This document shows positions 43,497 to 43,792 of a stretch of DNA of 64,000 nucleotides, one piece after another (positions within the stretch are counted from its first letter, which is position 1; each line of letters opens with the position of its first letter). A model generated the notes under the pieces. It did no database searches and was not told the origin of the DNA. It saw only the letters and a list, made by a program, of their open reading frames with translations. The stretch is from an uncultured delta proteobacterium (GTDB lineage Bacteria; Myxococcota; Myxococcia; Myxococcales; Myxococcaceae): the NCBI GenBank assembly GCA_963796055.1, contig CAWCKH010000005.1:96001-160000 (forward strand), given 5' to 3'. The translations under genes were made by a program, and so were the position numbers.

Positions 43497-43580
43497 ATGC
43501 GTCGAATTACCGCGCGGCCCATGCACATGCGTGGCCCGGGCGGGCGTTCCGTCGCCGGGGAGTGTTGTCGGTGTTGTTGA
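43497..43580 (+). CDS. Putative Cys-rich attenuator leader peptide MRRITARPMHMRGPGGRSVAGECCRCC
   Basis: 27-codon ORF (in-frame GTG at 43476 is an alternative start) ending TGT TGT CGG TGT TGT TGA, directly upstream of a sulfur-amino-acid operon. GAGGAAG lies upstream of the ATG. Confidence 0.72.
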   Translation: MRRITARPMHMRGPGGRSVAGECCRCC

Positions 43581-43792
43581 CCGACCTCCTCTCCCGACCG
43601 ATCAGGGGCGCACGCCCGGGGCCGACAGGAGACGGTGGTCTCCTCCCCGGGGTGAAAGCACGTCCCTCGAGTCCCGCAACATCCGACGACTCCCGCTGAC
43701 GCTTCTCCCGCCGTGAGGTGACCGCCAGGTTGGCCCCGGGGTCCGAACGCCCCCGCGCTTCCACCCAGGCAGCACCCACCAGAAGGAGAAGC
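43539..43792 (+). promoter_or_regulatory. Structured leader RNA with alternative helices controlling the metY RBS
   Basis: The Cys-codon tract 43558-43577 is complementary to 43676-43694. A long imperfect hairpin spans 43605-43753. GCTTCTCC (43701-43708) is a perfect complement of the RBS GGAGAAGC (43785-43792). Confidence 0.62.

What the first reader, a model, noticed from the sequence alone, without database searches (positions are those of the whole stretch)
43558..43792. Mutually exclusive RNA helices linking the Cys codons to the metY ribosome-binding site
Seen, helix A: GGGAGU-(GU)-UGUCGG-UGUUGU (43558-43577, covering the Cys codons) pairs with 43676-43694, about 18 bp with bulges. Seen, hairpin B: a long imperfect stem of GGGGCG 43605-10:43748-53, CCCGGGGCCGAC 43615-26:43729-40, GGUGGUC 43634-40:43720-26, CCUC 43642-45:43715-18, AAGC 43656-59:43701-04 and GAGUC 43669-73:43688-92. 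Seen, helix C: anti-SD GCUUCUCC 43701-08 pairs perfectly with the metY SD GGAGAAGC 43785-92. A and C are compatible with each other; B excludes both. No U-tract terminator is present. Inference: translational attenuation. With ample Cys the ribosome clears, A+C form and the RBS is hidden. Stalling on Cys codons blocks A, B forms and the RBS is freed. A possible extension of A (43539-53:43698-712) could alter this logic or add Met sensing.
Basis: partly seen in the sequence, partly recalled or inferred. Interest (0 to 1): 0.85.

Follow-up and report, generated by a model that had tools for sequence, protein, structure and literature searches.

The report
Methionine/cysteine-sensing leader before myxobacterial metY
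A tiny unannotated gene containing methionine and cysteine codons sits in front of the methionine-synthesis genes of many myxobacteria, and probably lets a stalled ribosome flip an RNA switch that exposes the next gene's ribosome-binding site when methionine runs short.

Summary
They lie behind a 34-codon ORF (43476-43580; three internal Met, four Cys codons) that starts just after a TTGACA/TACCGT promoter, ahead of metY-metX-aspartokinase/homoserine dehydrogenase. Such a leader stands before metY in 58 of 72 Myxococcaceae genomes examined; 3 carry a SAM-I/IV riboswitch instead.

B is the best RBS-open fold and C the closed one. But blocking the Cys codons leaves the SD paired, full helix A forms in 3 of 18 homologues, and B's real competitor is a local hairpin D. 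The switch the folding models support is trp-like: a ribosome on the Met-bearing codons frees a segment for helix E (18 of 18 homologues, about 8 kcal/mol). E blocks D, and a B-type hairpin then hides the anti-SD before the SD is made. A stall on the invariant last Met gives a footprint-dependent result, and the role of the Cys run is unresolved. Nothing was tested experimentally.

Nine literature searches found no Met-codon attenuator. Earlier scan notes report Met/Cys leaders before metY in other phyla, none on this DNA.

The parts
43438..43443 (+). -35 hexamer TTGACA (overlaps the stop codon of the upstream Xaa-Pro aminopeptidase gene)
   Evidence: TTGAC invariant in 18 of 18. Leader start lies 37-41 nt after its first T in 57 of 58 leaders, also where the upstream gene differs. 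The consensus scan did not call it.
43462..43467 (+). -10 hexamer TACCGT (TANNNT), 18-nt spacer
   Evidence: T, A, C, G, T invariant in alignment A1; promoter function inferred, TSS not measured
43476..43580 (+). Leader ORF, 34 codons, VRKFAPQMRRITARPMHMRGPGGRSVAGECCRCC*, no SD, predicted leaderless or nearly so
   Evidence: Open in 18 of 18 homologues, 34-37 aa, start codon GTG/ATG/TTG, 1-4 internal Met, 2-6 Cys, both TGT (56) and TGC (11) used
43497..43529 (+). Met codons 8, 16, 18 (region 1) and Met hairpin 43519-24:43529-34
   Evidence: Last Met invariant, Met at -2 in 16 of 18. Hairpin paired 108/108 cells with two independent one-sided changes.
43531..43552 (+). Region 2: 5' strand of helix E (core 43536-42 with 43613-19)
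   Evidence: Core invariant 18 of 18. Cognate over non-cognate pairing across genera, -34.6 vs -31.4 kcal/mol. 8/500 shuffles.
43557..43595 (+).
   Evidence: P alone is not above chance (99/500 shuffles)
43604..43626 (+). Region 3: shared strand pairing with region 2 (E), region 4 (D) or 43729-40 (B)
   Evidence: 43613-26 present in 18 of 18
43627..43651 (+). Hairpin H (loop invariant; also 5' arm of B3) and region 4, forming D
   Evidence: D 126/126 and H 124/126 cells paired; no two-sided change
43676..43694 (+).
   Evidence: Full-length form only in 3 of 18 homologues
43701..43708 (+). Anti-SD (helix C 5' strand)
   Evidence: 2/500 shuffles; follows SD variants; 128/144 cells paired
43715..43753 (+). 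3' strands of hairpin B (conserved core 43720-26 and 43729-35)
   Evidence: B3 125/126 cells, B core 99% paired; outer arm B1 83/108
43785..43792 (+). Shine-Dalgarno region of metY
   Evidence: 4 nt before the GTG
43797..45089 (+). metY, O-acetylhomoserine/O-acetylserine sulfhydrylase
   Evidence: TIGR01326 653 bits, cut-off 495
45086..46243 (+). metX-like homoserine O-acyltransferase
   Evidence: TIGR01392 232 bits, below cut-off 500
46240..48714 (+). Bifunctional aspartokinase/homoserine dehydrogenase
   Evidence: PRK09436 686 bits (cut-off 726), TIGR00657 above cut-off

Best explanation
A ribosome-sensed attenuator of the metY-metX-AK/HSDH operon, primarily reading charged Met-tRNA. The mRNA starts at or just before the leader GTG (inferred). 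With ample Met the ribosome runs through region 2 or leaves it folded back on region 1. Region 3 then pairs with region 4 (D plus H), the anti-SD stays free and captures the metY SD (C): OFF. If the ribosome waits on the Met-bearing codons 8-17, region 2 is freed from region 1 and pairs with region 3 (E). Shown: ORF and helix conservation, and the computed energy shifts. Inferred: translation, TSS, amino-acid response, translational output. The Cys run is selected as Cys and probably adds cysteine sensing, but its structural route is not resolved.
For: Leader in 58 of 72 family genomes examined, start 37-41 nt after TTGAC in 57 of 58. Frame kept through indels. G(E)-G(D) is -7.6 to -8.3 kcal/mol with the A site at codons -6 to -2 from the last Met, favouring E in 18 of 18, against +1.1 naked. 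Shuffling region 1 moves the naked value from +0.8 to -7.2, with 0 of 12 shuffles reaching the real value in 16 of 18. With E kept the anti-SD is enclosed before the SD appears in 16 of 18, with D kept in 1 of 18. E pairs better with its cognate partner across genera (permutation p 0.0004 on 11 related sequences). In 18 short-type leaders of other genera an analogous region 2:3 helix is predicted with the A site on the upstream C-R-M-x-M codons and is lost over the PGG-to-stop stretch. SAM-I/IV replaces the leader in 3 genomes, which fits a Met-related signal. No cysE over cut-off in 13 of 13 genus genomes and a CBS-like gene in G000 make Cys supply from homocysteine plausible.
Against: At equilibrium on the full-length RNA, C wins at every ribosome position; opening the RBS costs 11-15 kcal/mol on average with no clear trend. 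With B forced, the SD core is only 0.29 unpaired (0.06 with D; above 0.5 in 3 of 18), and with E kept the exact B core forms in only 6 of 18. A stall on the invariant last Met gives -4.8, +0.1 or +0.7 kcal/mol depending on the assumed footprint. Two homologues have Thr at the -2 Met, and one has a single internal Met. Within the genus the helices are invariant, so there is no two-sided covariation. In the 11 long leaders of other groups SD accessibility barely changes. No expression data were obtained. Met starvation also limits initiation (general knowledge), which the model ignores.
Confidence: 0.58

Rival explanations
1. One reading: a cysteine-only translational attenuator in which a stall on Cys codons blocks A, B forms and the SD is freed.
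For: Helices present and above chance in the window. B is the best RBS-open fold. In the three long-A genomes a Cys stall lowers the opening cost by 1-7 kcal/mol. Cys codons are kept with synonymous change. A second conserved Cys-run ORF exists before a cysteine-synthase-like operon.
Against: SD accessibility unchanged by the Cys block. Full A in 3 of 18, no cognate preference across genera. At the first Cys codons E is favoured in only 6 of 18. Short-type leaders have no C-terminal Cys run.
Confidence: 0.12
2. Same leader and E/D switch, but the output is transcription termination (Rho-dependent on the C-rich stretch before the SD, or intrinsic at a weak U tract), not SD masking.
For: Short-type leaders have a strong terminator-like hairpin with a weak U-containing tail. 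Many genus homologues have a hairpin followed by a U/C-rich tract. Rho was proposed for actinobacterial Cys leaders (PMC1262725, passages).
Against: No terminator-like site in the window leader. The pyrimidine tract follows the SD sequence across homologues as an anti-SD would.
Confidence: 0.15
3. Nascent-peptide arrest: the M-x-M-R-G-P-G motif stalls the ribosome in response to a metabolite (SAM, Met, homocysteine) instead of uncharged tRNA.
For: MxMRGPG is nearly invariant in long leaders and a Met..PxGG/PG motif recurs in short ones.
Against: The motif is invariant at the nucleotide level because it is helix E. Number and spacing of Met/Cys codons vary freely in short leaders.
Confidence: 0.08
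4. An undescribed ligand-binding riboswitch, with the ORF incidental.
For: Long invariant stretches including a hairpin loop; SAM-I/IV occupies the same position in relatives.
Against: No Rfam match. Frame-preserving indels, start-codon interchange and synonymous Cys codons. The downstream RNA differs between leader types while the ORF logic is kept.
Confidence: 0.05

Closest known systems
Mycobacterial polycysteine leaderless short ORFs (Ms5788A; Canestrari et al., 10.1101/834739; parts 1-3 of 6 and passages read)
   Same: Promoter-proximal SD-less ORF with a C-terminal Cys run, ahead of sulfur-metabolism genes; no intrinsic terminator; output proposed at the downstream SD
   Different: There the Cys tract pairs directly with the SD region. 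Here the SD is held by a separate anti-SD about 120 nt past the stop, reached through a cascade; the leader also has Met codons, which give the stronger computed switch; the target is metY in Myxococcaceae
Classical leader-peptide transcription attenuators (trpL, hisL, thrL, leuL; general knowledge and Fig. 1 legend of 10.1101/834739)
   Same: Regulatory codons in region 1; competing 1:2, 2:3 and 3:4 helices; a stall favours 2:3
   Different: No U-tract terminator in the window; leader lacks an SD; region 2 lies inside the ORF; the regulatory amino acid is Met, for which I found no described attenuator
Actinobacterial Cys leader peptides and LEU element (Seliverstov et al., PMC1262725; passages read)
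   Same: Cys codons near the stop, no terminator; the LEU element links regulatory codons to an SD
   Different: That study reports no conserved RNA element before methionine operons in Actinobacteria and no conserved hairpins for the Cys leaders
SAM-I/IV riboswitch (RF01725)
   Same: Found directly before orthologous metY in 3 family genomes
   Different: No match in the window leader; it senses ligand, not translation

Membership tests
Mycobacterial-type polyCys leaderless sORF attenuator | Short ORF whose start codon is at the transcript 5' end | tested here: inconclusive
   Start 37-41 nt after TTGAC in 57 of 58, 8 nt after TACCGT in the window; TSS not measured (searches gave contigs only)
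Mycobacterial-type polyCys leaderless sORF attenuator | At least two consecutive Cys codons near the stop | tested here: met
   CCRCC*; CC in 18 of 18
Mycobacterial-type polyCys leaderless sORF attenuator | Upstream of sulfur amino-acid genes | tested here: met
   metY-metX-AK/HSDH
Mycobacterial-type polyCys leaderless sORF attenuator | Cys tract pairs with the SD region; blocking it frees the SD | tested here: not met
   Cys tract pairs with 43581-95 or 43676-94, not the SD; SD stays paired under the block
Mycobacterial-type polyCys leaderless sORF attenuator | Expression responds to cysteine | not testable with these tools
   needs a reporter
Classical leader-peptide transcription attenuator | Conserved short ORF with end-product codons | tested here: met
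   Met and Cys codons, frame kept
Classical leader-peptide transcription attenuator | Mutually exclusive 1:2, 2:3, 3:4 helices switched by ribosome position | tested here: met
   Computed only; result at the last Met depends on the footprint assumed
Classical leader-peptide transcription attenuator | 3:4 hairpin is an intrinsic terminator with a U tract | tested here: not met
   hairpin D is not followed by a U run
Rfam riboswitches and T-boxes | Match to a covariance model | tested here: not met
   Best E 1.5, far below gathering scores; no SAM-I in G000

The most novel reading that the evidence does not exclude
A family-wide methionine attenuator in myxobacteria: a leaderless ORF senses charged Met-tRNA at internal Met codons, despite Met also being needed for initiation, and drives a multi-helix kinetic cascade to a distant SD. 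In the long form a second, separate Cys run gives a two-input Met/Cys gate on one operon that supplies both amino acids through homocysteine. It is interchangeable in evolution with a SAM-I/IV riboswitch.
Probability: 0.42. Interest if true: 0.8.

Novelty: new variant of a known kind. Interest (0 to 1): 0.62.

Why it matters
Methionine genes are known to be controlled by repressors, SAM/SAH riboswitches and T-boxes. In nine searches I found no leader-peptide attenuator that reads Met codons; the Proteobacteria survey PMC4239095 has no occurrence of 'attenuat' or 'Myxo' in its main text. If real, this shows how a ribosome can sense Met although every ORF starts with it. It would extend leaderless-ORF attenuation beyond Actinobacteria and offer a short, testable form in many family members with complete genomes.

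Tried and rejected
Rfam on 42800-44400: nothing near a gathering score. Column-wise covariation within the genus: helices nearly invariant, shuffles not exceeded (ON set 451/500, OFF set 58-78/500), so this says nothing either way. Helix A as a family-wide feature: rejected. Hairpin P and arm B3 alone are at chance level. SD accessibility scan on 11 long leaders from other groups: small, inconsistent shifts. Public RNA runs: 5 runs with word shares of 0.05-0.10; three were laid, contigs of relatives only, no information on start, strand or level. The SAM-I/IV search of G000 rang in no control genome, so it is uninformative. A genome scan for TTGAC-proximal short ORFs ranks this leader among the top 3 of 396 for Met+Cys count, not uniquely. 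One search's column counts had a one-base offset and were replaced; its ORF table is unaffected. Dropped rows: L075 and L078 (near-identical duplicates), L081 (truncated); L079, L084 and L085 (different downstream type, used only); L171 was assigned a wrong start codon.

Full report
Setting. The window is G000:C5:96001-160000, 71% G+C. Its close metY relatives are titled Myxococcaceae. The region lies between a Xaa-Pro aminopeptidase gene (41930-43441) and an operon of metY (43797-45089), a metX-like acyltransferase and a bifunctional aspartokinase/homoserine dehydrogenase. Rfam finds nothing here.

Observation. Against 500 shuffles of the partner region, A is reached 7 times, B2 0 times, C twice and B3 51 times; the leader's MFE has z = -3.0. 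There is no + strand U-tract terminator.

The leader ORF. GTG 43476 to TGA 43580 encodes 34 residues with Met at 8, 16 and 18 and Cys at 30, 31, 33 and 34. It starts 38 nt after the first T of TTGACA and 8 nt after TACCGT, without an SD. The consensus promoter scan did not call this promoter, so it rests on conservation. The leader is found in 11 of 12 other genomes of the genus. With eight metagenome loci and two duplicates dropped, 18 sequences were aligned. The frame is open in all 18 (34-37 aa), the start codon varies among GTG, ATG and TTG, the last Met and the first two Cys are invariant, and Cys uses TGT 56 and TGC 11 times. In the family, 86 of 208 genomes have a close metY; I fetched the upstream DNA of 72 of them. 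Of these, 58 have a promoter-proximal Met/Cys ORF, with the start 37-41 nt after TTGAC in 57. Three have SAM-I/IV instead and 11 have neither. There is a long form (MxMRGPG...CC) and a short form (Met/Cys cluster, then PxGG, 22-25 aa) followed by a strong hairpin with a weak U tail.

Blocking the Cys codons, the stop or the Met codons leaves the SD paired at equilibrium: 0.00 unpaired in the window, 0.10-0.13 mean over 18. Opening the RBS costs 11-15 kcal/mol on average at all positions. A Cys stall lowers it by 1-7 kcal/mol only in the three genomes with the long A strand. Full A forms in 3 of 18 and shows no cognate preference across genera (p 0.10). B does hold up: it is the best RBS-open fold in the two cases printed, its core is 99% paired, and it beats D before the SD is transcribed in 17 of 18 naked RNAs. 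The path from B to D + C has a high computed barrier (mean 36 kcal/mol, an upper bound). The anti-SD follows SD variants (cognate -12.0, non-cognate -10.5, permutation p 0.001 on related sequences). So any switch must be decided during transcription, at the point where D forms or not.

What decides D. The strand 43604-26 can also pair with 43531-52, just behind the Met codons (helix E). When region 4 has just emerged, G(E)-G(D) is +1.1 naked and -7.6 to -8.3 with the A site 2-6 codons before the last Met (E favoured in 18 of 18). It is +1.7 to +2.0 at the first Cys codons (6 of 18) and about 0 at the stop. E is absent with the ribosome on the codons after the last Met. The competition comes from the real region 1: shuffling it gives -7.2 instead of +0.8. 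With E kept, a long-range B-type helix encloses the anti-SD before the SD appears in 16 of 18; with D kept, in 1 of 18, partly by construction. Across 11 representatives of several genera E prefers its cognate partner, and the 18 short leaders folded show the same position dependence. Against: at the invariant last Met the value is -4.8, +0.1 or +0.7 depending on footprint. With B forced the SD core is only 0.29 unpaired, and the exact B core forms with E in 6 of 18. The genus alignment has no two-sided changes in these helices. All energies are nearest-neighbour estimates with a ribosome modelled as a 27-nt unpaired block.

Cysteine. The Cys run is selected as Cys, but no model gave it a consistent effect. 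It could add Cys-induced expression by blocking A or P, act as a timer, or tighten repression by holding ribosomes over region 2. Metabolic context favours sensing in the same direction as Met: no cysE over cut-off in 13 of 13 genus genomes, a CBS-like protein at 503 bits (cut-off 510) and metH in G000. Cys may therefore derive from homocysteine (inference); a separate cysteine-synthase-like gene of unknown substrate is a caveat. That gene has its own Cys-run ORF upstream in 11 of 11 genomes, apparently out of frame with the first GTG in one.

Comparison and novelty. It works like a trp-type 1:2/2:3/3:4 switch but fails the terminator test. It resembles the mycobacterial polyCys leaderless ORFs (10.1101/834739; parts 1-3 of 6 and passages; supplements not seen) but fails the direct Cys:SD pairing test. 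PMC1262725 (passages) found no RNA element before actinobacterial met operons. PMC4239095 (passages) covers only Desulfovibrionales and Desulfuromonadales among deltaproteobacteria. PMC2965389 (passages) names no Met leader in the passages shown. Nine searches (listings and abstract starts) gave no Met-codon attenuator. The library lacks most subscription journals; a 2010 comparative survey of attenuation by Lopatovskaya and colleagues (recalled, not seen) could bear on this. Earlier scan notes describe Met/Cys leaders before metY in other phyla, none by sequence, place or taxon for this one. I saw similar leaders with U-tract hairpins by eye in 8 of the 80 metagenome loci.

Verdict. A real, conserved leader-peptide regulatory element.

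Noticed in passing
G000:C4 about 3434235-3434312 (L275, ending 83 nt before the gene at 3434396): Second promoter-proximal ORF ending in four Cys codons, before a cysteine-synthase-like gene and a sulfurtransferase; Cys run present in 11 of 11 genus genomes with the gene, out of frame with the first GTG in one. Closely resembles the mycobacterial polyCys leaders.
   Followed up: partly
window 43450-43471: Inverted repeat spanning the promoter spacer and -10 box, with several symmetry-preserving changes in the genus. Candidate operator, or a hairpin in read-through RNA from the upstream gene.
   Followed up: no
L066, L068-L074, L156, L159, L161, L164-L167 (upstream of metY): Recurring TCCG...CGGA palindromes around the promoter, including genus g12 genomes with neither leader nor riboswitch; candidate transcription-factor site, seen by eye.
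   Followed up: no
L014:3005-3125, L067:3021-3136, L305:108-228: SAM-I/IV riboswitch before orthologous metY in three family genomes.
   Followed up: yes
L090, L091, L107, L118, L129, L136, L137, L140: Met/Cys-rich short ORFs followed by hairpin and U tract before metY in distant metagenome loci.
   Followed up: partly
L020 (G011) and L174 (G176) upstream of metY: Long leaders of another type with no Rfam match.
   Followed up: no
window 43438-43443: The stop codon of the aminopeptidase gene is part of the -35 box in this genus.
   Followed up: yes
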